Assembly (NCBI GenBank): GCA_028279765.1 | Contig: JANQND010000022.1 | Location: 26,149-90,148 of the forward strand | Direction of reading: 5' to 3' | Origin: Candidatus Nanoarchaeia archaeon | GTDB taxonomy: Archaea; Nanobdellota; Nanobdellia; Woesearchaeales; WJIZ01 | Length of the DNA stretch: 64,000 nucleotides | In this document: positions 2,025 through 34,943 of the stretch, piece by piece | Numbering within the stretch: position 1 is the first letter of the stretch | How the letters are laid out: every line of letters starts with the position of its first letter | The notes under the pieces: generated by a model | The model's input: the letters and a program-made list of their open reading frames with translations, nothing else | Told to the model about the DNA's origin: nothing | The model's database searches: none | Translations under genes and position numbers: made by a program

Positions 2025-2111
2025 GGTACAGGATATATAAATGTTTAGAGATAAAAGCTACTCATTTTTGGTAAGCAAAAGATTTTTAAGTAAATTCGGC
2101 TTACTCCCGTT

Positions 2112-18243: not shown

Positions 18244-18255
18244 GGTGTATACTTC

Positions 18256-19152: not shown

Positions 19153-19190
19153 GTTTCATCCTGCTCTTTGCAAGAGACCTATATACATAG

Positions 19191-20492
19191 CTAAGGAACA
19201 GGAACCTTTCGCAAAATTTCTTCGATAACGCGCTCTGCTTTAATTCCTTCTGCCTGTCCTTCATAGCTAAGTATTAATCGATGGCGCAGCACATCATAAG
19301 CAATGGTTTTGACATGATGCGGAGTAACATAATTTTGGCCGTTGAGTACTGCCTCAGCTCTTGCGGCACTGATTAGCCCTATCGAGCCCCTGGGAGATGC
19401 ACCAAATTCAACATAGCGGCCAAGCCCCACACCATACTTTTTAGGGAACCGGGTTGCATCAATAAGCTTCACGATATAATGCTCCACTTTTTGGTCGACA
19501 TACACTTTTTTTACATCATCTTGAATCTTAAGGATTAAGTCAGGGCTAAGAACTGCCTTGACTTTAAAATTTTCAAAGGAATGAGTGGAAATATTTGAAC
19601 GCAGTATACGCTGTTCCTCATCAATATTCGGGTATCCCATATAAATTTTGAAAAGGAAACGGTCAACCTGAGCTTCAGGCAGGGAATAGGTTCCAACGTT
19701 TTCCAATGGGTTTTGGGTTGCCATAGTAAAAAAAGGAAGAGGGATAGGAAACGACTCTTTTGCGATGGTTGCTTGCTTCTCCGCCATAGACTCCAGCAGG
19801 GCAGACTGAACCTTAGGCGGAGCCCGGTTGATTTCATCTGCTAGGATGAAATTATTAAAGATAGGGCCTTTCAGGGTATAGAATCCTCTCCCTTCCTGAT
19901 AAGTACTGATTCCGATAATATCAGTAGGGAGCAAATCAGGAGTAAACTGAATTCTTGCAAATGAACACCCTGTCGTTTGTGCGAGAGTTCGAATAAGGGT
20001 AGTTTTTGCAATTCCCGGGACTCCTTCCAGTAAAACATGTCCGTCCGAGATAAGCGCACGGATGAGCCCTGTAATTGCCTCATCCTGGCCCACAAGAATT
20101 CTCTGCACTTCTTTTCTTACAGTAAGAAACAACTTTTGATAACTCTGGATTCGTTTTGAGAAGCTTTTATTATCAAGTATTTCTGCATGCTGCTCCTCAA
20201 CGATGTGCTCCTGCTGTGTATCCTTGATTAAGTCAGCTACTTTGCTAATCTCTTCTTTTTCAAGAGAGGGGTCCGGTTCCTGATGCTCTTCCTGCGGCTG
20301 CTCAGGCTGTGCTTCCTGTTCATCAACCTGTTCAATTTGCTCATCAATCTCTTCAATTTTCTCCGAAGATGAGGGATTATCTCCTTTGTTAAGCATATCC
20401 TGTTCTAATTCCAGTTTTTTTCGCAGAAGATCAAGCTTAGAAGATGACGAAGCCTTTGAAACCCTCTTTTTTTCACTCTTCACTTTCCCCAT
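19191..20492 (-). CDS. MoxR-family AAA+ ATPase
   Basis: Walker A GHVLLEGVPGIAKT; LLPTDIIG; Walker B ILADEINRAPPKVQSALLE. Unusual roughly 110-aa acidic coiled N-terminal extension. Confidence 0.85.
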   Translation of the reverse strand: MGKVKSEKKRVSKASSSSKLDLLRKKLELEQDMLNKGDNPSSSEKIEEIDEQIEQVDEQEAQPEQPQEEHQEPDPSLEKEEISKVADLIKDTQQEHIVEEQHAEILDNKSFSKRIQSYQKLFLTVRKEVQRILVGQDEAITGLIRALISDGHVLLEGVPGIAKTTLIRTLAQTTGCSFARIQFTPDLLPTDIIGISTYQEGRGFYTLKGPIFNNFILADEINRAPPKVQSALLESMAEKQATIAKESFPIPLPFFTMATQNPLENVGTYSLPEAQVDRFLFKIYMGYPNIDEEQRILRSNISTHSFENFKVKAVLSPDLILKIQDDVKKVYVDQKVEHYIVKLIDATRFPKKYGVGLGRYVEFGASPRGSIGLISAARAEAVLNGQNYVTPHHVKTIAYDVLRHRLILSYEGQAEGIKAERVIEEILRKVPVP

Positions 20493-20539: not shown

Positions 20540-21238
20540 GTGAACTCCCAGTATAGGAGTAATACTGCGAGTCACGCAATAACATTTAAATATCTGCCAG
20601 TACTCAAAAAGCTCATGCAGGAAAAAAAAGAGGGCCATACGGTAAATTATACAAAAAAACTTCCCAAAAAACGGTCTATTGAAGAATATGTAAAATTTTT
20701 TCGCCGCATTCTAAGTGATGTATTTCTGGTTTCCGGCAGCCACACCTTTCTCGAAGCACAGCAGAGCATCAAAGGAAAAAAAGTCTCTCCGCAAGCAAAG
20801 TCCATGGCCATCAAACTATGCGATCAGTTTGAGCAGCTTGAATATCGCAGGGCAAAACCATCAGATAGCGAATTTACTCAGTTAAGAAAGCTGCTCACTG
20901 AATTAGCAAAAGAGTTTTCCACTCAGAAAACCAAAGAAGAAGCATCGTTCATGGGCAATATCTTGAAGAATGTCGGGACAGCAAAAAAGAAAAAACGATC
21001 GGGCTCCCGAAAAGCCGTATCCACATCCATATCCTTAAAGCCAAAGCAGGCAGGCAGAAAAAAAGAGAAAACAGTAAAAGGAAATCCTGCTAAAATGAGC
21101 GATTCAGAGCGCAAAAAAATTATGCGATATGCGAAAACCTCTAAGGAGTTAGGTGTGGCTACCAGAGTGATCAAAAAAGAGCTCCGCGAGATGGGCTTCA
21201 ACGATAATAATATTGATTTCGTTCTCAAGAATTTATAG
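20540..21238 (+). CDS. hypothetical Lys-rich protein
   Basis: 232 aa, highly basic low-complexity middle (KKKKRSGSRK…KPKQAGRKKEK), short helical C-terminal domain. No family assignment; true start may be the internal Met (MQEKKEG). Confidence 0.45.
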   Translation: MNSQYRSNTASHAITFKYLPVLKKLMQEKKEGHTVNYTKKLPKKRSIEEYVKFFRRILSDVFLVSGSHTFLEAQQSIKGKKVSPQAKSMAIKLCDQFEQLEYRRAKPSDSEFTQLRKLLTELAKEFSTQKTKEEASFMGNILKNVGTAKKKKRSGSRKAVSTSISLKPKQAGRKKEKTVKGNPAKMSDSERKKIMRYAKTSKELGVATRVIKKELREMGFNDNNIDFVLKNL

Positions 21239-21916: not shown

Positions 21917-24900
21917 TCATCCCCTTCTTCTCACAATTAATGAGACGATCACCACCAAAGCAATGAACAGGAGCAATAACAGCACACCGCTTACCAGCTT
22001 GAACAAGTCCCCTTCTCGCTGTTCAATAGGCACAGGCTGTTCAATCTCTCTGGGGTTGGTAACCAGGTAACGGCAGCCTTCAATAACAAAGTTGATCAGG
22101 TTGCGTGACTCTTCAAGGTTACCCTGGTCAAAAGAAGCCTCTGCCTCAGAAAGAAGCTCCGTAAGCTCAAGGCACTCAGGGTTATTATTGAGTAAGTCCC
22201 GTACAAATTCTATTTGGTTCTCTTCAATCGAACGATTATTTTCTATCCTGGCGATTCCCGTAACCGAGATTATTGAAGAGTCAGTGTAATCCGGGTCTCG
22301 GGAAGTAGCATTCACAATTACATCGAATTCTCCAATGGTCCCCTGCCACTGCATAAAGAGCATAAGCTCTTCAGACTGCCCGGGCCCTAATGATGAAATA
22401 GAATTTTCAGAGAACCAGGTTTTGACCTTATCACTATTCGTAGTAGCCTGCAGGTCTATGCCTGTCAAAATGACTTCAGCATTATTCTTCAGCACAATTG
22501 GCGCAACTACCGTATCATTATCGAAAGTGGTTAGGTGTGCCGGTGAAATTAATTCAAGGTATCGTGGTTCAGTTACTGTTCTTGTTCGTGTCTTGAATGA
22601 TGTTTTTGTGGTGGAAACAAAAATGAACTCTACCGAAGAAGTTTGATCAGCCTGTTCAACGGTAACAGACAGGTTATTGCTGGTAGTGGTATCATGCGAA
22701 TCATTAGCAATAAAGTAAATAGTCTCTGTTCCGAACCAGTCCGTTGGTGCTTCAACTCCGACTACATGGGAATCATTGTTAAGGGTTATAATCACGTTAC
22801 TGTTCCCTGCTGCGGTGAACACTACCGTATCGTCAGTATCAAGGTCAGAGAAATAATCATCCAGGTCTATCCAGTTCTGATTCGTTGTGCCTTGGCTTAG
22901 GCTGAGGTCTGGAAGGATATAGTGTATTTTAATGCTGCTCACATTTGGAGTGATACTCGTATCATTGGTCTCAAGGATGATCTTATACTGGATGTAGGTT
23001 GCATTCTCAGACACGATTTGTTCTCCGGAAGAGTTCAGATAGCTTCTATTAAGTGCAACAGTGCTCCAGTTATTCCAGTTATTTCCGTTCTGGCTTGTTC
23101 TGGTTTGCATAGATGCATTTGTTCCGTTCGGGGTTATTGCCGACCAGCTGATGGTAGTGAATCCGATGGGGCTGTAGAAGCTATTAAAGAGCGGCCCAAT
23201 ATCGATTGCAGCGGAGACAAATTCTCCGTATGTTGCATACGATCCTGTTCCGCTTGCAAGCAAAATGCCGCCTGTAGTAGTGTTAGTACTATTGTCGGTT
23301 CCGGAGCTAAACTCAGAATGCTGATCATGATGAATAGTTCCGAACACAGGTGCCCTGTTAGTATTATTTACCGTGATGTTCCACACAAAGGTGTCGTTCA
23401 GTCCTCTGCCATCTGAAACGACCAAAGTAAGGTTGTGAGCTCCTGCTTCCAGGAAGCCAAGCTCGTAGGTATAGTTCGAGGTCTTACTATTAGTAAGCAG
23501 GGTTCCGTCTTTGTACCAGCTGGTATTTATGGAGTCTCCGTTGGCATCTGTGGAGGTATGGTTGAAGAGGATTGAAGTATTTTCTGCAAGAGTTATCGAA
23601 GTGGTATTCATTGGGAAATCCGATCGGTTAGCAAAGGCAAAGACAGTGGATGTTGATACAGGGGTCCCATACGGGCGGATTTGGGTAATATTAGGAGCAG
23701 TATTAAATGCGCGGATGGTCAGGTTGAACAGCTGCGTAGTCTCTTTTCCCATAGTGTCGTTAACAGTCAGGTTGATCACGTGGACTCCTATAAAGGTGGA
23801 ATTTGGAGTAAAATTAAAGTATCCCGTTGAGTCATTGATCACGAAAATGTCTGCACTGGCATTAGTCCTGAATCTAAGAAGAGACTGTGCATCCTCCTCA
23901 TCCGTAGCATTAGCATCATAGGAAAAGAAGGATCCCTCATCAGCAATAAGGTTTGGAATCGGAGTAAGTACAGGAGCATCATTGAAAAAGTCAATAGTAA
24001 GGTTTATGGTTTCGTTATCTGATACTCCTGCACTGTCTGTTACATTAAATGTGATGGAATAGTTTCCTACATCACTGGCATTAGGCGTGAAGGTAAAGAA
24101 TCCCGAACTGGCATTGATAACAAAGAAACTCGAGTTCGTTGCAAAAGTAAGCGTATCATTATCGGGTGTCAGGGTATCATTATCTGTTGCATTTATAGTT
24201 AGGTTAAAGGGAGTATCCTCTGTTAAGAGAAGATTTCCAATGAGGCCAAGAATAGGGGCATCATTAGTGTTATTCACCGTAAAGTTCAGAATTCTGGAAG
24301 TGTTATCGTAGCCATCACTAGCGGTAATATTGATCGAATGGTTCCCTACCTGAGCATTAGTGGGGGTAAAACTAACGAATCCCGAGGAATTTACAAGGAA
24401 CCAATTCCCTCCTCCAAGAACCTCAGCAGTGATAGTTACGATGTCTCCTGCGTCCGGATCAGTTGCATTAATCTGGCAGGTATAGGGTTGATCCTCAACA
24501 GCAGTAGCATTGTCTTGGCACCAGTAATGAATAGTTGGAAGCTGGTTAACATTGAGGACAGTAAAATTGACAATGATTTCATCATAGAGACCGTCACTAT
24601 CATTCACCGTGATGTTCATATGGAATACCCCTACATCATCATTGATAGGAGTGAAGTTAATCATTCCTGACGTGGCGTTGAGTATCAGGCGTCCCGAGAA
24701 GGTATTGTTGAGAGTAAAATAAAAGGCCTCTCCCAATGGGGTAAGGCTGTCTTCATCACTAACATTCTTAGTAAGATTATGGGAGAACAGCGAAGACTCA
24801 GGTGCAGTAAGGTTTCCAATATTAAGGGTAGGGTGCTCCGGTGTATTGTTCACTGTGAAGTTAACCAGCCGGGAGCTTGATAGCCCGTATTGGTCTGTCA

Positions 24901-27900
24901 CGGTAAAGTTCAGCGTATGGTTCCCAACTTCTGTATCATTAGCAACAAAGCTCACATTTCCACTTGTAGAGTTGACAATGAACCAGCTCGTATTAACACT
25001 AAAGGTGAAACTATCCCGTTCTAAATCTGTTGCGTTTACATGGCATCTATGTGTCTGGTTTTCCTGTATTGTGGTGTTATCGTCGCACACATAATCAAAA
25101 ACAGGGGCAGTATTATTTCTGATAGTAAGCACAAACGTGACATTCGAGCGGGTTGCGGACCGGTCAGTAACATTCATCAGGATAGTATAATTCCCCTTCT
25201 CTCCCTCTGCTGCAGTAAAGGAGATCAGTGATGCAGTCTCATTCACTTTTACTGCAGAAAAGAAAGTCGAATTGGTTCCAAAAGTCAGGTTTTCGCTATT
25301 GTTATGGAAACTATTGCCCGGCTGGTTAAAGTCATCATCAAATCCGGTAACATTGTACGAGTAGAGCAGGCCAACTATTGCTATCTGATTTGAAATATTG
25401 AAAAGGCCCGGGACATCATTAGTGTTATTGACCGTGAAGTTGAAGTATGTGTTTACACTAAACGATCCGTCAGATACTGTCAGATTAATAGTATGATTGC
25501 CAACGTGCTGGTTTTCTGCAGTAAAGTTTGCAAGGACTTCCTTGCTCGAGACGGTTGTAAGGTTAAACCAACTGACATTTGTACTGAAAGTAAGAGTATT
25601 GTTCTCCTGGTCTGTAGCGTTAATAGTACAGCTAAAGGCTATATCTTCTAGAGCAGATCGCGAACTGTCACACACGTAATCAAAAACAGGGGGGTTATTA
25701 ATATCATTAACAGTAAAGTTCACAAGCTTCCATCCTACACCGCTATTGCTATCGGTAGTCGAGATGTTAAGAGTATAATTTCCCGTATCATCGTTGACAG
25801 GTGTGAAATTAATAAGGCCCGTAGTCAGGTTCATGATCAAAGTCAAGCCGGTACAGTTGCCGGGATCATAAGGGCGGGTACAGGAGAGAATACTATAATT
25901 GAATATCGAAAGGCTGCTATCTTCCTCATCTGTTGCTGTAAGCTGGTAGGTATACAGGGTTTCTGTGGTTGCATCAGTAATGGTATTACCTGATGGCTGT
26001 GTAAATACAGGAACATCATTAACAGCAGTCATGCTGATGTCAAGGGTAGCTGAATCAGGAGCATTATCACTGTCTTTAACAGTAAGCTGAGGAGACCAGG
26101 GGCCCTCTATCGCGTGGTCGCTGGTAGTAACATAAACCGTCAGGTTTCCGTTTGTGAAATCAAACGACCAGCAATTGCTGCAGTCGCTATGGGAAGTAAG
26201 GTTTGATATGGAACCTGCAGTATAATCATAGCTAAGCACATCATTAATGTTAGAGTCATTGGCATATTGGCTGATATTATAAGAGCAGGGAATGTCTTCT
26301 ATGCAGGCAACGGAAGGAAGTTTTCCCTCTGTCTTATTGAATACCGGGGCGCTATTATTAATAATAATGCTATCAGTAGCATTAAGAGTAGGCATGGTCG
26401 CATTCGTGCAGAGCACATTGAAATAAGATACACCTTTGTACGGTATTTTTCTGCTGAAATTCCAGGGAACGGATCCTCCATGATAGCTCATGTTCTCGGT
26501 ATCCTGGAAAGATCCGGTAAAGTTGAAACTAATCTCGCAGGTTCCGTTTGCAATGGCAGTACTGTTTGTATAGTTTGCATAGAAAATAATCTCATTAGTG
26601 GAATACCAGGTGCCTGAGTCAGTCGAATCCCAGATGGAAATGTTTCCTTCAGTGGTGTTATAGCTTGCATAATTATTTGCGTATGCGGTTGTATTTCCAA
26701 AAGTGAATTGCTGATTATGAATTCCGGGAGTAAGAACCTGCACGGTCCAGTAACCGGTGTCATTACATTCATATCCTTCATATGATGCACTCTTTCCTCC
26801 ATCCCACACGTAAGAGAGAGTGTCATCTCCGCACATCAGCGATAAAGGAACCAGATCGTCAGGAAGCGCATTTCCATAATTGGTATCGGCTATCGCGCTT
26901 AAAGTAAGGTTTGCCCTTCCAAGGGTAGTGAACTCAACGGTCCAGTTTCCTCCCACGGTAGGGTAGCTCTGCACATTAAGAACAGTAATATCAACCTCAT
27001 ACGTCTGATTAGAAAGGTGAGGAACTATCCATTTGATAGAATCGATGAGCCCATTTGAGTTTTCATCGATTCCTTCAAAGGAAACCTGAAGGCGAGTATC
27101 ATTAATGATATGATAAAGCGTTATTGCATCAAGCGGCTTCTCATCAATCGCAGTGTATGCCAAAATATTTGTATAATGCACATCAGAGCTAATCACTATC
27201 TTCTTTCTTGAATCACTGATATTCTCCTCCTCGGAGAGTGGGGCCTCTGTGGTGTAGTGCACCTCTATTTCCTGGGCGCTCTCGTTAATAAGGAGCCGGG
27301 TCTCGGTCTCACTGCTAATAAGCTCTTCAGATTCAAGAGCTTTAACCAGCGCAGACTCTTCTATTTCCTCTATGGATGTGCTGACACTGTCCAGTGTTGT
27401 GTCAGGGTATAGTACTGGTTGAGCAGAAGAGCGGTGCGAGGAGAGTCCCTTTGAAGCTTTGCCGGAACTCTTTTTCGTCTCTGTCTTTTCTTTTTCTTCA
27501 AGCAAAGTAATTCTCTGATCCAGTTTTGAAATCTGAGCAGTAAGGATAGTAATCTGTTTCTGAGCAGATTCTTTCTTCTTTTGCCCGGTCTCCCCAATCA
27601 ATTGATCAGCAAGTATGTCCTGCTTTTGCTCATACATTACCTTCAGTTCCGAGAGGAGGGCAACATCTTCTGGATCATTCGTTTTTTGTTTCAGCTTTCT
27701 CTTGATCTGTTGATTGAGATGCTTGCTAGTAGTCTCCTGTGCAAATTCAGTAAAATTCTTCTGCACATCGTCAGTAATCACTGCAAGGTTAGATGGGGAA
27801 ACTTCCTGCTTTTGTCCGCCATTGATGGTATAAACAGAAACATTAAATGCCTCTGCTGGAAGCCCTACCTCGACATTATCTTCTGAATCAGTAGCTACTA

Positions 27901-30900
27901 GTGATCTCTTCCATAATACTGGTTTTCCTATTTCTACTGGTGATGCCGGTGCGAAAGAATCTGCTGAAGAGTCTGTTGAAAGTTCTTCAGATACTGCGCT
28001 TAAAATAGTAGCATCATCACTTCTGTTAGTATTGGGTATGGCGGCAGAATCCGAAACATTAGCTGCAACCAGGATTTCGACAATATCAGACACTGTGCTC
28101 TGCTTTGAGTCATTTACAATGAAGAATGTGTATGCAGACCCTTCAAATCCTGGATCTGCACTAATAGTCACTAAGCTATCTTCAATAGTGAGGGATACGC
28201 CCTGTGCATCATAAGCATGGTAATAGAGATCATCATTATCTGCGTCGGTAGCATAGAGCCCTAGATCGAAAGAATAGGAAGAATTTGCGTTCATCACAAT
28301 AGTTTCAATAGTAGATAATTGTGGAGCGCTGTTAGAGATAAGAGATGACCGCTTATACGTAGCATTAGAAAGCAGGATGCTTCCGGAAGTTACGTCAATC
28401 ATCAGTGTACCTGCTGAGAATGAAGGAAGAGAGCAGCTCTCTACACAAATATCTGTGAAAGGCACCATCTCAGGCTGGAAGATAGCACTCAGTCTCTCTG
28501 CTTCAGATTCGATAATCTCGGAGTATGGATTAAGCGGGTCCAGGCTATAGTTAGCACTGATAACCTTCGCGCTAACAACATTCTGTTCTCCTGCTCCCTC
28601 TTTTTCTCTGTTCAGATAAAACGTATCATCCCATTGGTCGCGCTCAGGTCTGAGCTCTACAAGGCCACAGCAGGAAGTGCTCCCATAGCAGCTATATTCA
28701 TTTCCCGAATCATGGCTAACAGTCCAGAGTGTACAGAGATTACCAACATCCCTATCCCAGCTGAACCGTGTATCGCTAACAGAGAAGTCAACTACACCCT
28801 GAGTTGATACTATTCCGTTATTGTCAGGGTCCCAGGGTGTCCCTCCGTGGTAGCGCAAGACCATATCAATAGCTTTCTTGTTCTCAGAGAAAGTAATATC
28901 CTGGCTTTCTCTTATGAGAGTGTAGTTCCGAGGAGCAACGAGAGAACTGTCAAGTACCAGGACTCTCTCTTGCGCACTGCCGGCGTAGACCCGTATCTTT
29001 GCATCCCTTGAGAGTGCTCCACTTAAAGTAAGCGAATCCAGCGAGCCGCTAATTCCTAAATCCACCTGGCCGGAATCGTCAAAAGTAGTGTCGAGCATCA
29101 GAGAGGTGTCTCCAAAGACAACACCGCCAGAGTCTTCAAAGATAACGCTGCCGGTGATTGCGGGATTCGTGAAGAGATACATACTGCCAAAAAGGCTGAT
29201 CATTAATAAGAGGACTAAAGCCGTCCTATTTCTGTTTCCCTTTGAGGGTTTCTTCTTTTTGGAGAGCGCTGTTTTCTGGCTCGCTTGCTTGCTGGATTTT
29301 TTATTTGCCTGATAAACAGAGTCAACTGCTACAGCAGAAGTTTTCTTCCTGATAGTAAACTCTATCAAAGAAATTGCTTCCTGAGCAACCTTCTTGAGGT
29401 CAGCAGCAGAAATAGCCTTAGCACTATATTCAATGTCAATAAGGCGATCAAAGAATGGCTCAACCCTATGCCTGACAAAATCTTCCTTTCGCTTCTCGCT
29501 TGATGTGGTTCCCTCATAAGCAAGAGTAAATTGGCGGTCAAATCGTTTCTTGTACCAACCTCGCATAAGAGCACTGAGTTGCTTAGTGAGAGTGTTTCTG
29601 TTCTCTTTAGGGGCTTTGAGTATGATATCATTCAGCCGGGCGATAACATCTTCTGAAGCACGAGTGATAAGAGTTCTGGATTTCCCGGATGGTTTCAGCA
29701 ACATATTCTTAAGCGCGCCTGGTGCATTCTTCATTCTATCGAAAAGGGCATGAACAAAGGAAATTCCATTCAGAGTTCTCAACAATTCCTTCAAATGAGA
29801 GTGCCTTGGTTTTTCTCCTTCCGGTTTCCTTTTGTGTTTCCTTCTTCTCAAGAAAAGGAAAAGAGCCAAGAGAATAATTAGTATAGCAAGGACAATCCGC
29901 CAAAGAGAAAGCCCCTCTTCACTCTGCGGAGTCAACTGCTCAACTTGTACTTGCTCAATGTATTCCCCAAGATTGCAGGGCCTGCAGGGTCCACCGCAAT
30001 CTATCCCCTCTTCGCACAGCTCACTTCCGTCATCCTGAGCATGACAGTTCAGCACAGAATCAAAGCAGGTCACACACTCATTAGGACAACCTGCACCGCA
30101 GTCAACGCCTTGCTCCCCGAAATTCTGAATACCGTCTGAGCAATGCTCAATAAACTCACAAGACCGGGTAAGGTTAGGCTGGAATTTAGTAGTCCCGCAT
30201 CGGTTAATATCAGTACAGTTTCGCGCAGCAGATCCACTGCCACAGGCAGACCATCGTGAACAATGCCACTTTTCCTCACAGCGAAGCAGCTTTGCGGCGC
30301 CACCGCCACCGCCGCCACCGCCACCACCGCCTCCGGCAGTAGAGGGAATAGTTACCGTTTCAGGAACATTGGTAACCGTGTAATTAGCACAGACGATTTT
30401 TGAAGAGTCAATGGTATCATTGGCCTGATAACAAACAGTCTCTACTCCGAACCAGTTTGCAGCAGAGCTCAGGGTAACAAAGTGGCTTGCCGGGCAATTA
30501 ATTCCAAGAGGATTGATATTATTATCAACCGTAACAGTTATTTGCGGAGATGCTGTTAAATGAGATACAGTGTACTGCAGGCAGTCGCCATCTGAATCAT
30601 TGAAGTAGCCATCAAGATTATAGGCGATGATTGTGGTATCTTCATTCCAGGAAGCATCCAGGCTATCAGGATTGCCAGTATACTCAGGAGCGGTATTATT
30701 TGCAACTACTGTTATATTGACCAATACCGACGTATGATCAGCTGTGCAATTGCTGGTGTCATTAACCGTGATATTCAGAATGTGGTCTCCGATATGCACA
30801 ATTGATGGGGTGATATTAAGTGCTCCGGTGGACGAATCAAACTGCATGAATGATTCAAAGGAGGAGAATGAGGTATAGTTTTCTTCAACTACAGAGAAAA

Positions 30901-31618
30901 CAAGGCTGTCTTCTACATCAGCATCGGTTGCGTTAATCGTGATATTCCAAAGGATATTTCGGGGAAGGGTGTAATTGGAGCCAATAGTAATAACAGGAGC
31001 AGATTTGGCATTGCAGCCCTTAGTAATCTTTAAGCTAAGAATATCTGTTGAAACATTATTATTGCATCCGCTTCCATCATCAACACTGATGTTAAAATGG
31101 CTTGTTCCTAATGCAGTGATATTCGGAGTGAAGTTAATAACTCCTTCTGATACCGTAATGTTGAACAGTGTTGCATTATCACTAAAGGTAAATATCGTCC
31201 CAAGGTTGTTATCACTTACCGTCACATTGCAATAGTATTCATCAGTCACGTTTACAGTAGTAAGGCAGGATGATAGATTTACCTGAGGAGGATCATTTAC
31301 GCAAAGCGAAGTAACTCCGGTAACGACAAAATTTCCTGTCACAAGATCAGGTCCGCCTGCTGAATTCGCAGAGGTAAGTAAGTAGAGGTTGACGCCAACT
31401 GAAAAGAGTACAAAAAGGAGTACCAAAGCAGCAAGAGAGTTATTAGAAACTGTCTTTCTCTTCTCAGAGAAAGAAAGATAGTCACGAATAATAGACTGGA
31501 CCCGAAGAGGAGTATATCCTTCGCGCAGAAGAGACTCTTCGATAGCCTGAAGAGAATACCCTTTAGCACGACAATGAGCCACGTATTTTCTCAGTCCGAA
31601 TCTACCTTTCTCTTCCAT
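21917..31618 (-). CDS. giant polytopic surface protein (3233 aa) with four TM segments and two ectodomains
   Basis: 9.7 kb uninterrupted ORF. N-terminal about 60-aa cytoplasmic domain. TM1 (about 31370–31430). Ectodomain 1 of about 490 aa with Ig-like repeats, a (Gly)12 tract and an EGF-like Cys-rich block. TM2 (about 29840–29900). Roughly 210-aa basic cytoplasmic loop. TM3 (about 29160–29220). Ectodomain 2 of about 2380 aa with coiled coil, the shared SDVHYTNIL module and Ig/cadherin-like repeats. C-terminal TM plus RRRG (21917–22000). Dense N-x-S/T sequons. Confidence 0.8.
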   Translation of the reverse strand: MEEKGRFGLRKYVAHCRAKGYSLQAIEESLLREGYTPLRVQSIIRDYLSFSEKRKTVSNNSLAALVLLFVLFSVGVNLYLLTSANSAGGPDLVTGNFVVTGVTSLCVNDPPQVNLSSCLTTVNVTDEYYCNVTVSDNNLGTIFTFSDNATLFNITVSEGVINFTPNITALGTSHFNISVDDGSGCNNNVSTDILSLKITKGCNAKSAPVITIGSNYTLPRNILWNITINATDADVEDSLVFSVVEENYTSFSSFESFMQFDSSTGALNITPSIVHIGDHILNITVNDTSNCTADHTSVLVNITVVANNTAPEYTGNPDSLDASWNEDTTIIAYNLDGYFNDSDGDCLQYTVSHLTASPQITVTVDNNINPLGINCPASHFVTLSSAANWFGVETVCYQANDTIDSSKIVCANYTVTNVPETVTIPSTAGGGGGGGGGGGGAAKLLRCEEKWHCSRWSACGSGSAARNCTDINRCGTTKFQPNLTRSCEFIEHCSDGIQNFGEQGVDCGAGCPNECVTCFDSVLNCHAQDDGSELCEEGIDCGGPCRPCNLGEYIEQVQVEQLTPQSEEGLSLWRIVLAILIILLALFLFLRRRKHKRKPEGEKPRHSHLKELLRTLNGISFVHALFDRMKNAPGALKNMLLKPSGKSRTLITRASEDVIARLNDIILKAPKENRNTLTKQLSALMRGWYKKRFDRQFTLAYEGTTSSEKRKEDFVRHRVEPFFDRLIDIEYSAKAISAADLKKVAQEAISLIEFTIRKKTSAVAVDSVYQANKKSSKQASQKTALSKKKKPSKGNRNRTALVLLLMISLFGSMYLFTNPAITGSVIFEDSGGVVFGDTSLMLDTTFDDSGQVDLGISGSLDSLTLSGALSRDAKIRVYAGSAQERVLVLDSSLVAPRNYTLIRESQDITFSENKKAIDMVLRYHGGTPWDPDNNGIVSTQGVVDFSVSDTRFSWDRDVGNLCTLWTVSHDSGNEYSCYGSTSCCGLVELRPERDQWDDTFYLNREKEGAGEQNVVSAKVISANYSLDPLNPYSEIIESEAERLSAIFQPEMVPFTDICVESCSLPSFSAGTLMIDVTSGSILLSNATYKRSSLISNSAPQLSTIETIVMNANSSYSFDLGLYATDADNDDLYYHAYDAQGVSLTIEDSLVTISADPGFEGSAYTFFIVNDSKQSTVSDIVEILVAANVSDSAAIPNTNRSDDATILSAVSEELSTDSSADSFAPASPVEIGKPVLWKRSLVATDSEDNVEVGLPAEAFNVSVYTINGGQKQEVSPSNLAVITDDVQKNFTEFAQETTSKHLNQQIKRKLKQKTNDPEDVALLSELKVMYEQKQDILADQLIGETGQKKKESAQKQITILTAQISKLDQRITLLEEKEKTETKKSSGKASKGLSSHRSSAQPVLYPDTTLDSVSTSIEEIEESALVKALESEELISSETETRLLINESAQEIEVHYTTEAPLSEEENISDSRKKIVISSDVHYTNILAYTAIDEKPLDAITLYHIINDTRLQVSFEGIDENSNGLIDSIKWIVPHLSNQTYEVDITVLNVQSYPTVGGNWTVEFTTLGRANLTLSAIADTNYGNALPDDLVPLSLMCGDDTLSYVWDGGKSASYEGYECNDTGYWTVQVLTPGIHNQQFTFGNTTAYANNYASYNTTEGNISIWDSTDSGTWYSTNEIIFYANYTNSTAIANGTCEISFNFTGSFQDTENMSYHGGSVPWNFSRKIPYKGVSYFNVLCTNATMPTLNATDSIIINNSAPVFNKTEGKLPSVACIEDIPCSYNISQYANDSNINDVLSYDYTAGSISNLTSHSDCSNCWSFDFTNGNLTVYVTTSDHAIEGPWSPQLTVKDSDNAPDSATLDISMTAVNDVPVFTQPSGNTITDATTETLYTYQLTATDEEDSSLSIFNYSILSCTRPYDPGNCTGLTLIMNLTTGLINFTPVNDDTGNYTLNISTTDSNSGVGWKLVNFTVNDINNPPVFDYVCDSSRSALEDIAFSCTINATDQENNTLTFSTNVSWFNLTTVSSKEVLANFTAENQHVGNHTINLTVSDGSFSVNTYFNFTVNNTNDVPGLFNISNQIAIVGLLYSYNVTGFDDDFNQPGNSFHNNSENLTFGTNSTFFSAVKVNETASLISFTAAEGEKGNYTILMNVTDRSATRSNVTFVLTIRNNTAPVFDYVCDDNTTIQENQTHRCHVNATDLERDSFTFSVNTSWFIVNSTSGNVSFVANDTEVGNHTLNFTVTDQYGLSSSRLVNFTVNNTPEHPTLNIGNLTAPESSLFSHNLTKNVSDEDSLTPLGEAFYFTLNNTFSGRLILNATSGMINFTPINDDVGVFHMNITVNDSDGLYDEIIVNFTVLNVNQLPTIHYWCQDNATAVEDQPYTCQINATDPDAGDIVTITAEVLGGGNWFLVNSSGFVSFTPTNAQVGNHSINITASDGYDNTSRILNFTVNNTNDAPILGLIGNLLLTEDTPFNLTINATDNDTLTPDNDTLTFATNSSFFVINASSGFFTFTPNASDVGNYSITFNVTDSAGVSDNETINLTIDFFNDAPVLTPIPNLIADEGSFFSYDANATDEEDAQSLLRFRTNASADIFVINDSTGYFNFTPNSTFIGVHVINLTVNDTMGKETTQLFNLTIRAFNTAPNITQIRPYGTPVSTSTVFAFANRSDFPMNTTSITLAENTSILFNHTSTDANGDSINTSWYKDGTLLTNSKTSNYTYELGFLEAGAHNLTLVVSDGRGLNDTFVWNITVNNTNRAPVFGTIHHDQHSEFSSGTDNSTNTTTGGILLASGTGSYATYGEFVSAAIDIGPLFNSFYSPIGFTTISWSAITPNGTNASMQTRTSQNGNNWNNWSTVALNRSYLNSSGEQIVSENATYIQYKIILETNDTSITPNVSSIKIHYILPDLSLSQGTTNQNWIDLDDYFSDLDTDDTVVFTAAGNSNVIITLNNDSHVVGVEAPTDWFGTETIYFIANDSHDTTTSNNLSVTVEQADQTSSVEFIFVSTTKTSFKTRTRTVTEPRYLELISPAHLTTFDNDTVVAPIVLKNNAEVILTGIDLQATTNSDKVKTWFSENSISSLGPGQSEELMLFMQWQGTIGEFDVIVNATSRDPDYTDSSIISVTGIARIENNRSIEENQIEFVRDLLNNNPECLELTELLSEAEASFDQGNLEESRNLINFVIEGCRYLVTNPREIEQPVPIEQREGDLFKLVSGVLLLLLFIALVVIVSLIVRRRG
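30299..30334 (-). repeat. in-frame (GGY)12 trinucleotide tract encoding Gly12 in giant protein
   Basis: Plus strand reads gccaccgccaccgccgccaccgccaccaccgcctcc; it translates on the minus strand to GGGGGGGGGGGG immediately before the Cys-rich block. Confidence 0.85.
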
Positions 31619-31781
31619 GCGCCTCCTTCTCTTTGCTAATATTTTCTATAACGACGTTCTTTTGCCCGGGAATTTTAGAAATCAGAATGGTATCGCCGTT
31701 CTCCCAGCCCAGAGCCTCAACCAGTTCCTTAGGGATATTAATAGAACACTGAGAATTAGATTTAATACAGACTTTGGGCAT
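31602..31781 (-). CDS. AbrB/SpoVT (swapped-hairpin) family small DNA-binding protein, 59 aa, not in ORF track
   Basis: I translated it as MPKVCIKSNSQCSINIPKELVEALGWENGDTILISKIPGQKNVVIENISKEKEAHGRER. S..GQ.sI.IPKEl.e.LGw..GD.i core of the SpoVT_AbrB domain. Its 3' end overlaps the ATG of the 3233-aa giant gene by 17 nt. Confidence 0.6.
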   Translation of the reverse strand: MPKVCIKSNSQCSINIPKELVEALGWENGDTILISKIPGQKNVVIENISKEKEAHGRER

Positions 31782-32895: not shown

Positions 32896-34197
32896 TTATT
32901 TTCCTGATAATCGTTTATGCACTGTTTTCCTTAGGGAAGTAGAAGAAAGTTCATAAGGCTTCTTGCGATGAACAGCGATATACCATAAAAAATTAACAAC
33001 AAAAAGAACTGCAAGCGCTATTAGCCCGATAAGCATAGCATTATCACGAGCAGAAGAAGGATGTTCGGCGTCTCCGGTAAGCTGAACTTGTACATGCTTT
33101 TGTTCAAGCTTGTCAAAATAGTGTACAACAATATCAATATCATAATTTCCCGCCAAAAGGCCATTTTTCTCCCAGAATGCAGTAAGCCTTCCTTTCCCCC
33201 ACGGTTCAAGGTCAAGAGCGCTTGTCTTAAGAGTATCAACTATCACTCCATTTTTTCTGATTACCAGCTCCGCATAGACCTGATCAAGAATATCGTTCCA
33301 GCTACTCTGAACATCAATGAAAATCTTAGCTACCGGTCCGCTCAAATCTGCTTCCACGTTCAATATTTCAATATCAATATCTCCCAGGCGCAGTTGAGAA
33401 CTGGTGTAGGCAGGCTCCGTACCTCCGTAATCTGTAGAAGCACTAACATGATATACTCCTGGCCTTAGATTATGTGTTTTCCATTGAGCAGAAAGTTCTT
33501 TGCGTTCAGCCGGGCGGAGCAAAGACAGTCGCTCGGATTGTAGCTCAGCAACCGGATTTCCGTCTGGATCCTTAATAGAAATATCCGCCTGCAAGCCGAG
33601 TAAGTCCTCTGTTCCGAAATTATGAGTATCAACAAGAATATCAATTTCCTCTCCTATCGTCGCAGTTTTGGGATCCAGTGACAATGCTGTTTCAAGGAAT
33701 TTTCCGGTATTAGGAACACGTACCTTAACAACAAATCCGATTGCTGCAAAGGCAGTAGCAATACTGGGATAATTTCGCTTCTCTTCCGCTGTGAGGTACT
33801 GTTCAATCACAATCATTGCGCGATGATCTCCCGGAGGAAGGTCTGAGGGAATGTCAACACGAAAAGGAACCGCGGTAGGATCTTTCATGTAAGTGCGGTA
33901 TTCCTTCATACCATTGATGAGAATAGAGTCCTTTAACTTCCCCGTGGAATACATCCTGACGTTTTTTGATTCGCGCGGTAAAACAGTAAATTCTCCTTCC
34001 TCAAAATCCTGTCCGATATACACAACAGGAAAGCTCGGAGGGGTTACTCCCATGCCGGTTGAATAAACAACAGCAGGGCACACAAATAACAGCATAGCAA
34101 GGAGTAGGAATGTCCTATAACATCTACATCTCCTATCACGACTCCCCTGCATTCGCTGTACATACCCAGCCAGGTTTTTCAATATCGTTCGTATCAT
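32896..34197 (-). CDS. membrane-anchored multi-beta-sandwich surface protein (COG1470-like), paralog A
   Basis: N-terminal signal/TM (FLLLAMLLFVCPAVVYS). Several beta-rich domains. C-terminal TM plus basic tail (LIGLIALAVLFVVNFLWYIAVHRKK). Segments NYDIDIVVHYF and WNDILDQVYAELVI match paralog B at 35545–36786. The probable true start is the internal Met at about 34152. Confidence 0.65.
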   Translation of the reverse strand: MIRTILKNLAGYVQRMQGSRDRRCRCYRTFLLLAMLLFVCPAVVYSTGMGVTPPSFPVVYIGQDFEEGEFTVLPRESKNVRMYSTGKLKDSILINGMKEYRTYMKDPTAVPFRVDIPSDLPPGDHRAMIVIEQYLTAEEKRNYPSIATAFAAIGFVVKVRVPNTGKFLETALSLDPKTATIGEEIDILVDTHNFGTEDLLGLQADISIKDPDGNPVAELQSERLSLLRPAERKELSAQWKTHNLRPGVYHVSASTDYGGTEPAYTSSQLRLGDIDIEILNVEADLSGPVAKIFIDVQSSWNDILDQVYAELVIRKNGVIVDTLKTSALDLEPWGKGRLTAFWEKNGLLAGNYDIDIVVHYFDKLEQKHVQVQLTGDAEHPSSARDNAMLIGLIALAVLFVVNFLWYIAVHRKKPYELSSTSLRKTVHKRLSGK

Positions 34198-34212
34198 AAA
34201 TAGGTAACCTCG

Positions 34213-34890
34213 CTAACAGCTCGCATCGCTACATGCTGCAAAAAAAGTTACTGCCTGCTGCTTTGTTCCGGGGCCCTCTGAGAGGGGAACAGTAACGTTC
34301 ACGCCAAATGACGCGTTATCCTGTCCATCCGTATGTAATAAGTCTATAGCAAGCTGTCCTCCTCCCTGTCCAGTCCATAAGGGATAATAAGTACTATTAC
34401 AGTCAAACCCTGTCTGTGTTGAATTGCACTTCACCATAAAACAAGTATGCTCATTAGTTGCCCAGGCATCAAGACATCCACCGCTCGAATCATTAGTACT
34501 AAAAGGGCCTATACCCCGTTCATTTGCCGTCTGGTTTCCTCCAGGCTGAGTGCCATAAATTTCTAAACTAATATTTACTCCACCATTATTATTCACGCGC
34601 CACCAATCATCAACACCCTCATCATCACTATAATTAGTCTGGCCCGTAGTTAGCGTACCAAGTTCAATAGCACTTGAGTTCAAATCCCCTGTTACTTCAG
34701 AGAGAGTAATGGATGCTGCATTAGTCACGGTTAGGTTCGCTCTGCCTACCTGCGAAGTCGCAAATCCGGTAATGCTGGCAATCCCGTCAGGAAAACTAAA
34801 TCCGTTAACGCTTGCAAAAGCCCCTATTGAAGTAAGAGCCATCGAAATAGCAACAATAACAATCAGGGTAGTATCAGATATTTCGGCCAT
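34213..34890 (-). CDS. secreted/anchored Gly-Asn-Thr-rich protein with 6 Cys
   Basis: 225 aa. N-terminal hydrophobic anchor (TTLIVIVAISMALTSIGAFA). Low-complexity G/N/T-rich body. C-terminal Cys pairs. 15-nt gap to the next gene, so an operon context. Confidence 0.5.
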   Translation of the reverse strand: MAEISDTTLIVIVAISMALTSIGAFASVNGFSFPDGIASITGFATSQVGRANLTVTNAASITLSEVTGDLNSSAIELGTLTTGQTNYSDDEGVDDWWRVNNNGGVNISLEIYGTQPGGNQTANERGIGPFSTNDSSGGCLDAWATNEHTCFMVKCNSTQTGFDCNSTYYPLWTGQGGGQLAIDLLHTDGQDNASFGVNVTVPLSEGPGTKQQAVTFFAACSDASC

Positions 34891-34943
34891 ATTACTTCAT
34901 TTCCTTATCGTCGACATATTTTATAAACATTTCGAAGCTCATT

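What the first reader, a model, noticed from the sequence alone, without database searches (positions are those of the whole stretch)
21917..31618. Giant ORF 2 is a 4-TM polytopic protein with two large ectodomains and a 210-aa basic cytoplasmic loop
Hydrophobic segments lie at about residue 62–82, about 573–593, about 800–822 and at the C-terminal 25 aa (followed by RRRG). Positive-inside logic fits a topology with N and C termini inside and the two largest segments outside; the segments are listed below. The loop between TM2 and TM3 is strongly basic (RRRKHKRK…KKKKPSKGNRNR).

- Ectodomain 1: about 490 aa, Ig-like plus EGF-like Cys-rich.
- Ectodomain 2: about 2380 aa.

A surface adhesin with a sizeable intracellular domain is unusual. 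It suggests transmembrane signalling or cytoskeletal/nucleic-acid tethering rather than a passive S-layer-type protein.
Basis: partly seen in the sequence, partly recalled or inferred. Interest (0 to 1): 0.65.

Follow-up and report, generated by a model that had tools for sequence, protein, structure and literature searches.

The report
Fused four-span giant archaeal surface protein
This 3,233-residue gene of a tiny DPANN-type archaeon is a real four-span surface protein made by fusing two normally separate neighbouring adhesin genes. The basic loop between the spans is a conserved cytoplasmic domain, and a free-standing copy of it is encoded beside a MoxR ATPase/VWA gene cluster.

Summary
Window 21917-31618 (-) is one uninterrupted 3,233-aa ORF with exactly four strong hydrophobic segments: aa 62-80, 572-590, 799-817 and 3211-3229. 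The 208-aa loop between TM2 and TM3 has net charge +30.

An N-in/C-in topology is supported by:
- flanking charges;
- N-glycosylation sequons (0 in the loop, about 5 per 100 aa in both ectodomains);
- cysteines (0 in the loop, 26 and 24 in the ectodomains).

Three 35-38%-identical orthologues from independent assemblies show the same pattern.

The new finding is the gene's origin. In most Woesearchaeota-type genomes there are two adjacent genes. Gene A is TM, Ig/Cys-rich ectodomain, TM, cytoplasmic helical tail. Gene B is TM, Ig-repeat ectodomain, C-terminal TM. ORF2 fuses them, so the loop is A's tail and TM3 is B's signal anchor.

The tail is an un-annotated domain family. It has a TM-less paralogue (window 20615-21238 +) transcribed divergently from MoxR-DUF58-BatA/VWA. 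The whole cluster recurs in many relatives.

Any signalling or docking role is inferred, not shown. The Pfam DUF4381/DUF4129 matches are sub-threshold. A weak similarity to the Bacteroidales Bat-operon membrane protein also falls short of proving homology. Verdict: a new variant of a known kind, of moderate interest.

The parts
21917..31618 (-). ORF2: 3233-aa four-span, N-glycosylated giant surface protein (fusion of modules A and B)
   Evidence: Single ORF. Orthologues P0001, P0002 and P0003 (3174, 3033 and 2955 aa) have the same four TMs.
31445..31618 (-). N-domain, aa 1-58: small cytoplasmic three-helix domain with motif RKYI..L.KGYS...I...L...GY
   Evidence: The same domain heads other giant proteins (P0012, P0017, P0046 twice, P0055, P0078). 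AF2 gives a three-helix bundle, pLDDT 83. hhalign to the C-terminus of the soluble paralogue: probability 89%, E 2.2e-6. No Pfam family matches.
31379..31435 (-). TM1, aa 62-80: signal anchor, N-terminus inside
   Evidence: KD peak 2.45. The flanks carry K+R 3 before and 0 after.
29906..31378 (-). Ectodomain 1, aa 81-571: Ig-like (Big_9) domains, a Gly12 linker (aa 429-440) and a Cys-rich ExGxDCGGxC block (aa about 445-549)
   Evidence: Big_9 27.2 bits against a cutoff of 23.6. 24 sequons and 26 Cys. Homologous to stand-alone family-A proteins from their residue about 3-8.
29849..29905 (-). TM2, aa 572-590: stop-transfer span followed by RRRKHKRK
   Evidence: KD peak 2.97. K+R is 0 before and 9 after.
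29225..29848 (-). Cytoplasmic loop, aa 591-798: conserved helical 'A-tail' domain (core aa about 650-760), net charge +30
   Evidence: 0 sequons and 0 Cys. phmmer from the loop alone: P0003 4e-15, P0001 4e-12, P0032 1e-11, P0130 4e-8. Alignment A1. AF2 gives a helical bundle, pLDDT 78, core above 90. No Pfam, NCBIfam or PDB sequence match.
29168..29224 (-). TM3, aa 799-817: second signal anchor, equivalent to the N-terminal TM of separate B-type and giant proteins; followed by NPAITG
   Evidence: KD peak 2.00. K+R is 7 before and 0 after. Proteins matching only aa about 800-1188 start 10-60 residues before this TM.
21989..29167 (-). Ectodomain 2, aa 818-3210: head domain (about 823-1190), basic coiled-coil region (about 1290-1400), VHYTNIL domain (about 1409-1545), Ig-like repeat array (about 1900-2780), and a C-terminal region shared with B proteins
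   Evidence: Pfam Big_9 148 bits, plus He_PIG, Cadherin_5 and PKD. 133 sequons. aa 1409-1542 is 46% identical to ORF1. aa about 1850-3225 is homologous to the separate gene B in split loci, for example L006 at E 8.7e-114.
21920..21988 (-). TM4 (aa 3211-3229) plus the cytoplasmic tail RRRG
   Evidence: KD peak 3.39. Conserved in the orthologues and in B proteins.
31602..31781 (-). 59-aa AbrB/MazE-like ORF that overlaps the ORF2 start by 17 nt
   Evidence: Pfam MazE_antitoxin 24.9 bits against a cutoff of 24.7. Relatives carry an RHH-like 48-70-aa gene in the same position.
20615..21238 (+). TM-less 207-aa paralogue made of the loop-domain core plus an N-domain-like C-terminus; transcribed divergently from MoxR
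   Evidence: The loop HMM hits it at E 1.5e-7 and hits its orthologues at 1e-10, 9e-12 and 3e-9. No hydrophobic segment. hhalign of its C-terminus against the N-domain: probability 89%. Weak DUF4129 match, E 0.2-0.3.
19191..20492 (-). MoxR-type AAA+ ATPase
   Evidence: Pfam AAA_3 190 bits and AAA_lid_2. Lies downstream of family-A genes in 9 of 12 loci with at least 9 kb of flank.
18256..19152 (-). DUF58 (VWA-like) protein
   Evidence: Pfam DUF58 142.5 bits.
17308..18243 (-). BatA-type membrane VWA protein with three hydrophobic segments; the VWA domain lies between the second and third
   Evidence: Pfam BatA 33.1 bits (cutoff 25.9) and VWA 61 bits. TM positions.
32896..36786 (-). Upstream conserved genes: p433 (32896-34197) and p413 (35545-36786), which are paralogues with an N-terminal TM, a weak CARDB-like match and a C-terminal TM; a 225-aa protein (34213-34890); and an HTH protein (34944-35597)
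   Evidence: Pfam and TM scan. Homologues lie upstream of family-A genes in L002, L004, L005, L007, L010, L012, L013, L019, L027, L031 and L033.

Best explanation
ORF2 is an intact gene of a DPANN archaeon, most likely Woesearchaeota-type. It encodes a giant, heavily N-glycosylated, disulfide-rich cell-surface protein that crosses the membrane four times, with both termini in the cytoplasm.

It is a natural Rosetta-stone fusion of two genes that are separate, adjacent and co-oriented in most relatives:
- Gene A: N-terminal anchor, Ig-like and Cys-rich ectodomain, TM, and a cytoplasmic helical tail of about 200 aa.
- Gene B: N-terminal anchor, Ig-repeat ectodomain and a C-terminal TM.

The 208-aa basic loop is therefore A's conserved cytoplasmic domain, without its TPR-like C-terminal hairpin. 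TM3 is B's signal anchor. ORF2 is also a mosaic. Its 58-aa N-domain and the first 1,000 aa or so of ectodomain 2 are shared with N-domain-led giants such as the neighbouring ORF1, and are absent from the split-locus B proteins.

Shown here: ORF integrity, four hydrophobic spans, compartment signatures, conservation, the fusion, the domain family, its soluble paralogue, and the conserved cluster HTH - p413/p433 - small DNA-binding protein - A - B - soluble paralogue, then divergently MoxR - DUF58 - BatA/VWA.

Inferred mechanism:
- TM1 starts translocation of ectodomain 1.
- TM2 stops it.
- TM3 re-starts translocation of the 2,393-aa ectodomain 2.
- TM4 stops it.
- A and B normally work as a complex on the surface, probably in attachment to a host or substrate.
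- The cytoplasmic four-helix domain and the N-domain act as protein-protein docking sites. They would tie this adhesin to the soluble paralogue and, through it, to the MoxR AAA+/DUF58 machinery inside the cell. The BatA VWA domain would act outside. The result would be assembly, quality control or inside-out control of the adhesin.
For: **ORF and spans**
- One ORF with four hydrophobic segments.
- A 100%-identical independent Logan contig calls the same 3233-aa gene.

**Topology**
- All four orthologues have positive-inside flanks and loop net charges of +15 to +30.
- They carry 0-1 sequons and 0 Cys in the loop, against 4.4-5.9 sequons per 100 aa and 20-27 Cys in each ectodomain.
- Across 25 family members the ectodomains (13,332 aa) hold 531 sequons and 645 Cys. 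The tails (5,491 aa) hold 10 and 8.

**Family**
- phmmer of aa 1-1200 against 1.84 billion representatives gives 3,031 hits.
- Three of them have the full architecture.
- Many proteins of about 620-800 aa match only aa about 57-590, or up to 755.
- Many long proteins match only aa about 800-1190.
- About 45 of the top 150 carry the tail domain, and about 10 of these have a third TM after it.

**Fusion**
- In L006, L010, L012, L017, L019, L020, L025, L027, L031, L033 and L051, gene A is followed immediately on the same strand by a gene of 1,200-1,670 aa.
- Ten of those eleven genes have one N-terminal and one C-terminal TM. In L020 only the C-terminal one was detected.
- They are homologous to ORF2 aa about 1850-3225, with E as low as 8.7e-114.

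**Context**
- MoxR-DUF58-VWA lies downstream on the same strand in 9 of 12 loci with at least 9 kb of flank, and also in L003, L004 and L006.

**Paralogue**
- The loop HMM hits TM-less proteins of 190-240 aa next to MoxR, with E from 9e-34 to 5.5e-5.
- In the ORF2 clade these also end in an N-domain-like module (hhalign probability 89%).

**Taxonomy**
- The neighbouring genes are archaeal.
- The related loci are labelled Woesearchaeota, Nanoarchaeota or Pacearchaeota.
Against: - No dedicated topology or signal-peptide predictor was available. TM calls rest on hydropathy and compartment signatures.
- Nothing shows that the loop binds MoxR, DUF58 or the paralogue. Gene adjacency could be lineage synteny rather than functional coupling. 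In L020, L025 and L027 no MoxR is seen in the available flank.
- The loop has no significant match to any Pfam, NCBIfam or PDB entry.
- Its predicted fold is a generic four-helix bundle.
- ORF2 and its three orthologues lack the TPR-like hairpin that most tails carry, so the fused loop could be a degenerate remnant.
- There are no expression or proteomic data.
Confidence: 0.68

Rival explanations
1. Precursor that is cut. TM3, and perhaps TM1, would act as a cleavable signal sequence. The mature products would then be two polypeptides equivalent to the separate A and B proteins, and the four-span form would exist only transiently.
For: In split loci, B starts with the same hydrophobic segment. 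A conserved P-x-x-T-G-[FYL] motif follows TM3 and the N-terminal TM of B-type and giant proteins: NPAITG, NPEITG, RPEITG, KPATTG, EPILTG and QPALTG. That motif could mark a processing site.
Against: Many proteins with this TM carry a conserved, folded 50-aa N-domain in front of it. That argues for a retained signal anchor. No cleavage predictor or proteomic data are available, and the motif is not a known archaeal signal-peptidase site as far as I know.
Confidence: 0.2
2. Inert relic. The loop is only the leftover tail of gene A kept as a spacer after the fusion. The protein would then be a passive surface adhesin, and the MoxR neighbourhood would be coincidental synteny.
For: The fused lineage has lost the C-terminal TPR-like hairpin and the LY.EI motif of the tail. 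P0002's loop is only 138 aa. No function is known for the domain.
Against: The core motif is still recognisable at 35-38% overall identity (phmmer 4e-15 to 4e-7). The AF2 core has pLDDT above 90. A soluble paralogue is kept next to MoxR in the same genomes. The A - B - paralogue - MoxR order recurs in diverse MAGs.
Confidence: 0.1
3. Assembly or annotation artefact: two genes merged by a sequencing or assembly error at the junction.
For: Relatives have two genes here, often with overlapping stop and start codons, so a single-base error could fuse them.
Against: Two assemblies of this genome agree. Three orthologues from other samples (Logan SRR29660418, GCA_014729995.1, GCA_030647105.1) keep the same single frame through TM2, loop and TM3. 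The junction has ordinary GC content and no repeats.
Confidence: 0.02

Closest known systems
Bat (Bacteroides aerotolerance)-type MoxR-DUF58-BatA/VWA operons, including the membrane protein encoded between DUF58 and BatA (weak DUF4381/BatD-like Pfam hits)
   Same: - The same three core genes lie next to ORF2.
- The Parabacteroides protein has the layout of family A: signal, beta-sandwich ectodomain, TM, cytoplasmic helical region.
- The loop-domain profiles align to that region in register: hmmsearch E 1e-6 to 4e-5 against that single sequence, and hhalign P 2.9e-4 over 81 columns.
- BatA-type VWA domains face outward in Borrelia BB0173 (PMC5700661).
   Different: - Homology is not established. 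hhalign probability is only 40%, and Pfam DUF4381 and DUF4129 scores are below threshold.
- No BatB, BatC or BatD genes were found here.
- The ectodomains here are 10-100 times larger.
- The organism is an archaeon, and the function of Bat operons is itself unknown.
Bifidobacterium PFNA cluster (pkb2-fn3-MoxR-duf58-tgm)
   Same: A membrane-anchored Ig-fold (FN3) adhesion protein is encoded directly beside MoxR and DUF58. MoxR is proposed to chaperone the adhesin (PMC8430577).
   Different: The PFNA cluster has a Ser/Thr kinase and a transglutaminase, and the window has neither. The FN3 protein is small, with one TM and no cytoplasmic domain of this family. It is bacterial.
SPEARE proteins of Nanohaloarchaeota
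   Same: They are giant (3,300-8,500 aa) DPANN surface proteins with adhesion domains outside, a TM and a conserved intracellular part. They are thought to mediate host attachment (PMC6642349).
   Different: SPEARE proteins are described with one TM. Their intracellular part is a type III restriction-enzyme-like domain, and they have serine protease and laminin-G domains. None of these appears in ORF2.
Tandem-95 / Big_9 Ig-like repeat adhesins of bacteria
   Same: The repeat array of ectodomain 2 scores well above the curated cutoffs (Pfam Big_9 148 bits; NCBIfam NF012211 152 bits).
   Different: From general knowledge, those are secreted or wall- or outer-membrane-anchored proteins without cytoplasmic domains or multiple spans.
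Metazoan adhesion receptors (integrins, cadherins) with adaptor-binding cytoplasmic tails
   Same: This is a functional analogy only: a large glycosylated ectodomain, a TM and a cytoplasmic module. VWA/MIDAS proteins are in the same system. The loop's predicted fold resembles four-helix adaptor domains such as FAT, though not significantly (E above 0.1).
   Different: There is no sequence or specific structural relationship, and no evidence for signalling.

Membership tests
Big_9 / tandem-95 Ig-like repeat surface proteins | Several Ig-like repeats of about 90-95 aa that score above the curated family cutoffs | tested here: met
   Pfam Big_9 148 bits (cutoff 23.6, 7 stretches). NCBIfam NF012211 152.4 bits (cutoff 90, 9 stretches).
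Woesearchaeal 'A-tail' cytoplasmic domain family (undescribed; defined here by alignment A1) | Helical domain placed directly after the TM that follows the Cys-rich ExGxDCGGxC block, with core motif R..F...F...YEFTYEEL ... EY.G....EL..LI.EA | tested here: met
   The position is identical. The ORF2 loop alone finds P0003 (4e-15), P0001 (4e-12), P0032 (1e-11), P0130 (4e-8) and others. The motif in ORF2 is degenerate (FDRQFTLAYEG ... IEYSAKAIS).
Woesearchaeal 'A-tail' cytoplasmic domain family | C-terminal TPR-like hairpin ending in K..Y..I..LY.EI | tested here: not met
   Absent from ORF2 and from P0001-P0003. In these proteins TM3 follows the core directly.
Pfam DUF4381 / DUF4129 | Score at or above the Pfam gathering threshold | tested here: not met
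   The best DUF4381 score is 20.9 bits (cutoff 27.2) and lies mostly over TM2. The consensus sequence gives E 2. Stand-alone paralogues match DUF4381 in 3 of 12 cases (best E 0.004) and DUF4129 in 2 of 12 (best E 0.1).
Bat-operon membrane protein (between DUF58 and BatA) | Homology of the cytoplasmic region in a profile-profile comparison | tested here: inconclusive
   hhalign of the 54-sequence loop alignment against 5 Bacteroidales sequences gives probability 40%, P 2.9e-4 and 81 columns in register. hmmsearch gives E 1e-6 to 4e-5 against one sequence.
Bat / MoxR-VWA operon (the neighbourhood, not ORF2 itself) | MoxR AAA_3 ATPase, DUF58 and a BatA-type VWA membrane protein in a row | tested here: met
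   AAA_3 190 bits, DUF58 142.5 bits, BatA 33.1 bits plus VWA 61 bits, at 17308-20492 (-).
Bat / MoxR-VWA operon | BatB, BatC (TPR), BatD and BatE genes present | tested here: not met
   No BatD or TPR hits in the window's neighbouring genes or in the B proteins of split loci.
SPEARE proteins | Intracellular type III restriction-enzyme-like domain, with serine protease and laminin-G domains outside | tested here: not met
   No such Pfam or NCBIfam hits anywhere in ORF2. The features are taken from PMC6642349.
PGF-CTERM / archaeosortase substrates | PGF motif, TM and basic tail at the C-terminus | tested here: not met
   The C-terminus is DLFKLVSGVLLLLLFIALVVIVSLIVRRRG, with no PGF motif. No NCBIfam sorting-domain hit at E up to 1.
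Polytopic membrane protein with N-in/C-in topology | Prediction by a dedicated topology program, or experimental mapping | not testable with these tools
   Only hydropathy, positive-inside counts, sequon and Cys distribution, and homology of the loop to TM-less proteins were available.

The most novel reading that the evidence does not exclude
The Woesearchaeal cluster (A, B, soluble A-tail paralogue, MoxR, DUF58, BatA-VWA) may be an archaeal, hypertrophied relative of the bacterial Bat/MoxR-VWA envelope operons. In it, the AAA+ ATPase would act through the conserved cytoplasmic four-helix domain to assemble or switch giant host-attachment proteins. This would be inside-out control, analogous to integrins. 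ORF2, as a fusion, would then name the long-sought client of a MoxR-DUF58-BatA system.
Probability: 0.2. Interest if true: 0.8.

Novelty: new variant of a known kind. Interest (0 to 1): 0.55.

Why it matters
Giant surface proteins are the main candidates for how genome-reduced DPANN archaea hold on to their hosts, yet almost nothing is known about how they are anchored or controlled.

Three points follow from this gene:
- One family of such proteins carries a conserved, un-annotated cytoplasmic domain.
- Two partner proteins (A and B) are revealed by a natural fusion.
- The set is encoded next to a MoxR AAA+/DUF58/VWA module whose clients are unknown in any organism.

That gives a concrete, testable hypothesis for both problems. 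It also supplies defined domains (the loop core and the N-domain) for interaction tests.

Tried and rejected
- **The search for homologous proteins.** Three queries (aa 561-830, alignment A1 and core alignment A6) returned nothing or one hit. This is a limit of the word index, not evidence of absence, because the exhaustive representative search found thousands of hits.
- **'Gene B = BatD'.** Rejected, because B proteins show only Big_9, He_PIG and PKD domains.
- **'EGF-like'.** Not supported by any profile.
- **SPEARE and PGF-CTERM membership.** Both rejected.
- **Source contig.** The exact ORF2 product is not on record. An exact-match scan of metagenome contigs for the window's end found nothing, so the N-terminus of ORF1 could not be read.
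- **tRNA and Rfam scans of the window.** Empty.
- **Genome-contig scan.** It keyed on the widespread Cys-rich motif and also pulled in unrelated Bacteroidota loci.
Full report
**Observation**

The window has one uninterrupted ORF at 21917..31618 on the minus strand, with an ATG start and 3,233 codons. A 19-residue Kyte-Doolittle scan finds exactly four segments above 1.6. They are aa 62-80, 572-590, 799-817 and 3211-3229, and the last is followed by RRRG. The loop between TM2 and TM3 is 208 aa with 48 K+R, 21 D+E and no Cys. The two long segments are acidic (net -42 and -193) and Cys-rich (26 and 24).

Ectodomain 1 contains Big_9 Ig-like domains and a Cys-rich block built on ExG[IV]DCGGxC. No profile supports 'EGF-like'. 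Ectodomain 2 carries at least seven Big_9/tandem-95 repeats plus He_PIG, Cadherin_5 and PKD signals. A Logan assembly of run SRR20820735 is 100% identical over window 9191-30492 and calls the same 3,233-aa gene. GC content across the loop is ordinary. The only DNA tandem repeat in the gene encodes the Gly12 run.

**Organism**

The neighbouring genes are archaeal. They include Trm1, aIF5B, DUF460, RtcA, CTP-dependent riboflavin kinase and PUA proteins. Related loci come from MAGs labelled Candidatus Woesearchaeota, Nanoarchaeota or Pacearchaeota. Two orthologues sit in GCA_014729995.1 and GCA_030647105.1. I infer a DPANN, Woesearchaeota-type source.

**Topology**

ORF2 and its three orthologues (P0001 3,174 aa, P0002 3,033 aa, P0003 2,955 aa; 35-38% identity) share the following features:
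- They keep four hydrophobic segments at equivalent positions.
- Basic residues sit on the N-side of TM1 and TM3 and on the C-side of TM2 and TM4.
- Loop net charge is +15 to +30.
- The loop has 0-1 N-X-S/T sequons and no Cys.
- Both long segments have 4.4-5.9 sequons per 100 aa and 20-27 Cys.

Over 25 family members the ectodomains (13,332 aa) hold 531 sequons and 645 Cys, while the tails (5,491 aa) hold 10 and 8. Archaeal N-glycosylation and disulfide-rich modules are extracytoplasmic (established knowledge), so the loop is inside and both long segments are outside. Independent support comes from homology. The loop domain also occurs in proteins with no hydrophobic segment at all. No dedicated topology predictor was available.

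**What the protein is made of**

An exhaustive phmmer search with aa 1-1200 gave 3,031 hits. Beyond the three full-length orthologues, the hits fall into two groups:
- Many proteins of about 620-800 aa match only aa about 57-590, starting from their own residue 3-8. Some of these matches continue through the loop, for example P0010 to aa 755.
- Many long proteins (2,000-5,600 aa) match only aa about 800-1190, starting 10-60 residues before their single N-terminal TM.

The first group, family A, has this order: TM, Ig and Cys-rich ectodomain, TM, then a basic, Cys-free tail of 200-260 aa. That tail aligns with the ORF2 loop (alignment A1). It has a core of ...R..F...F...YEFTYEEL...EY.G....EL..LI.EA..., followed by a TPR-like hairpin ending K..Y..I..LY.EI. 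ORF2 and its three orthologues have the core but not the hairpin. About ten of the top 150 relatives carry a third TM, and sometimes a fourth, after the tail. A cytoplasmic domain sandwiched between spans is therefore a recurring design.

The 58-aa N-domain of ORF2 is a separate small module. It also heads several of the long second-group proteins (P0012, P0017, P0046 twice, P0055, P0078). AF2 predicts a three-helix bundle with pLDDT 83. It has no significant PDB or Pfam relative.

**Fusion**

Eleven Woesearchaeota-type loci (L006, L010, L012, L017, L019, L020, L025, L027, L031, L033, L051) carry a separate family-A gene. In each it is followed immediately, on the same strand and often with overlapping stop and start codons, by a separate gene of 1,200-1,670 aa. 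Ten of those genes have one N-terminal and one C-terminal TM; in L020 only the C-terminal TM was detected. They are homologous to ORF2 aa about 1850-3225 (L006 E 8.7e-114; L010 9e-68).

ORF2 and P0001-P0003 are therefore fusions of A and B. The loop is A's tail and TM3 is B's anchor. It does not apply in this lineage, where four independent assemblies keep one frame.

The protein is also a mosaic. Its aa 823-1900 comprise the head domain, a coiled coil and the VHYTNIL domain. That stretch is missing from split-locus B proteins. It is present in the N-domain-led giants and in the neighbouring ORF1.

**Neighbourhood**

In the window the order is as follows:
- HTH protein;
- p413, a 225-aa protein and p433 (p413 and p433 are paralogues);
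- a Cys-rich lipoprotein-like gene;
- a 59-aa AbrB/MazE-like ORF that overlaps the ORF2 start;
- ORF2;
- a methyltransferase;
- a 207-aa gene on the opposite strand (20615-21238);
- then, divergently from that gene, MoxR, DUF58 and BatA/VWA.

The three orthologous loci have the same order without the methyltransferase. Among loci retrieved through the Cys-rich motif, which is independent of MoxR, 9 of 12 with at least 9 kb of downstream sequence have MoxR-DUF58-VWA on the same strand within 7 kb.

An HMM of the loop domain hits the opposite-strand gene next to MoxR:
- window, E 1.5e-7;
- L002, 1e-10;
- L003, 9e-12;
- L004, 3e-9;
- L017, 9e-34;
- L010, L019, L031 and L033, 1e-18 to 1e-24.

These proteins have no TM. 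In the ORF2 clade they end in a module that hhalign relates to the N-domain (probability 89%, E 2.2e-6). Both cytoplasmic parts of ORF2 thus recur together in one soluble protein encoded beside MoxR.

**Relation to known families**

- **Pfam.** Pfam does not recognise the loop. Among the stand-alone or TM-anchored paralogues, the most frequent weak matches are DUF4381 (3 of 12, best E 0.004) and DUF4129 (2 of 12, best E 0.1). All are below threshold.
- **Bat operon.** I tested a canonical Bat operon from Parabacteroides, ordered AAA, DUF58, a 369-aa protein, VWA, VWA, TPR, BatD, TPR. The 369-aa protein has a signal, a BatD-like beta domain, a TM and a cytoplasmic helical region, which is the layout of family A. 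The loop HMMs hit that region at E 1e-6 to 4e-5 in a one-sequence test. hhalign of a 54-sequence loop alignment against five Bacteroidales homologues gives probability 40%, P 2.9e-4 and 81 columns in register. This is suggestive but inconclusive.
- **B proteins.** They show no BatD signal.
- **Published parallels.** These are the Bifidobacterium PFNA cluster of FN3 adhesin, MoxR, DUF58 and transglutaminase (PMC8430577); the Borrelia and Bacteroides Bat genes, where the BatA-type VWA domain is periplasmic (PMC5700661); and nanohaloarchaeal SPEARE proteins, giant adhesins with a conserved intracellular domain (PMC6642349).
- **Literature gap.** A full-text search for Woesearchaeota together with MoxR found no paper.

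**Mechanism**

Shown: the architecture, the compartment signatures, the fusion, the domain family, the paralogue and the conserved cluster.

Inferred:
- The four spans insert sequentially, alternating start-transfer and stop-transfer.
- A and B act together at the surface (Rosetta-stone logic).
- The loop core and N-domain are docking modules. They connect the adhesin to the soluble paralogue and to the MoxR/DUF58 machinery inside.
- The BatA VWA domain acts outside.

Rivals:
- Proteolytic processing at the conserved P-x-x-TG motif after TM3. I could not test this.
- An inert relic loop.
- An assembly artefact, which is largely excluded.

**Verdict**

The functional interpretation remains open, but it now has a specific, testable form. 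The gene is a new variant (fused, four-span, MoxR-linked) of the known kind 'giant DPANN surface adhesin', and it carries an undescribed cytoplasmic domain family.

Noticed in passing
window 36758-64000 (-): ORF1 is at least 9,019 aa. The frame is still open at the window edge. It has 455 N-X-S/T sequons and no hydrophobic segment anywhere in the part seen, so it has no C-terminal anchor. Its first 124 in-window residues are 46% identical to ORF2 aa 1409-1542. It is probably an N-domain-led giant of the P0017/P0075 type, but its N-terminus could not be retrieved.
   Followed up: partly
window 31602-31781 (-); L002 4034-4246, L003 2248-2448, L004 9811-10020, L005 2844-3026, L006 1008-1154: A tiny gene overlaps the 5' end of every family-A or fused gene examined. 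In five relatives it is a conserved ribbon-helix-helix-like protein (LIHIRVGKE..MQ.LID.G.FS..AEIAREGIR). In the window the same slot holds an unrelated AbrB/MazE-like 59-aa ORF. This looks like displacement of one small DNA-binding protein by another.
   Followed up: partly
ORF2 aa 818-823 (window about 29150-29167) and aa about 95-100; homologues P0001-P0003, P0012, P0014, P0017, P0029: A conserved P-x-x-T-G-[FYL] motif follows the N-terminal or third TM directly: NPAITG, NPEITG, RPEITG, KPATTG, EPILTG, NPGMTG, QPALTG. It resembles LPXTG but lies after the TM rather than before it. It could be a processing or recognition site.
   Followed up: no
window 11374-12036 (-): This 220-aa protein has an N-terminal signal-like segment and a TM at about aa 131-150. 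It ends in a copy of the ORF2 N-domain (HMM E 7.6e-6, aa 180-217). That small three-helix module therefore looks like a general cytoplasmic appendage of membrane proteins in this genome.
   Followed up: partly
window 32896-34197 (-) and 35545-36786 (-): Two paralogous proteins (433 and 413 aa) each have an N-terminal and a C-terminal TM and weak CARDB-like matches. An HTH (Sigma70_r4-like) gene lies at 34944-35597. Homologues lie upstream of family-A genes in many Woesearchaeota loci, so the conserved cluster extends upstream of ORF2.
   Followed up: partly
window 21242-21865 (-): A class I SAM methyltransferase sits between ORF2 and the soluble paralogue. It is absent from the same position in the three orthologous loci.
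   Followed up: no
window 30298-30335; ORF2 aa 429-440: A run of 12 glycines is encoded by an imperfect 9/15-nt tandem repeat. It separates the Ig-like part of ectodomain 1 from the Cys-rich block. Gly runs occur at the same place in many family-A proteins.
   Followed up: no
L034-L086 (genome-contig hits): The Cys-rich motif ExG[IV]DCGGxC of ectodomain 1 also occurs in proteins of Saprospiraceae, Flavobacteriia, Polyangiaceae and Patescibacteria. It appears to be a widely shared extracellular Cys-rich repeat. The neighbouring gene 32001-32825 has related Dicty_CTDC repeats.
   Followed up: no
window 7414-11283 (-): This 1,289-aa ORF has a lipoprotein-like N-terminus (MKKLISVLLLTLALMLAAC), no Pfam match at E up to 0.01 and only 6 sequons. 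That contrasts with the heavily sequon-rich giant proteins.
   Followed up: no
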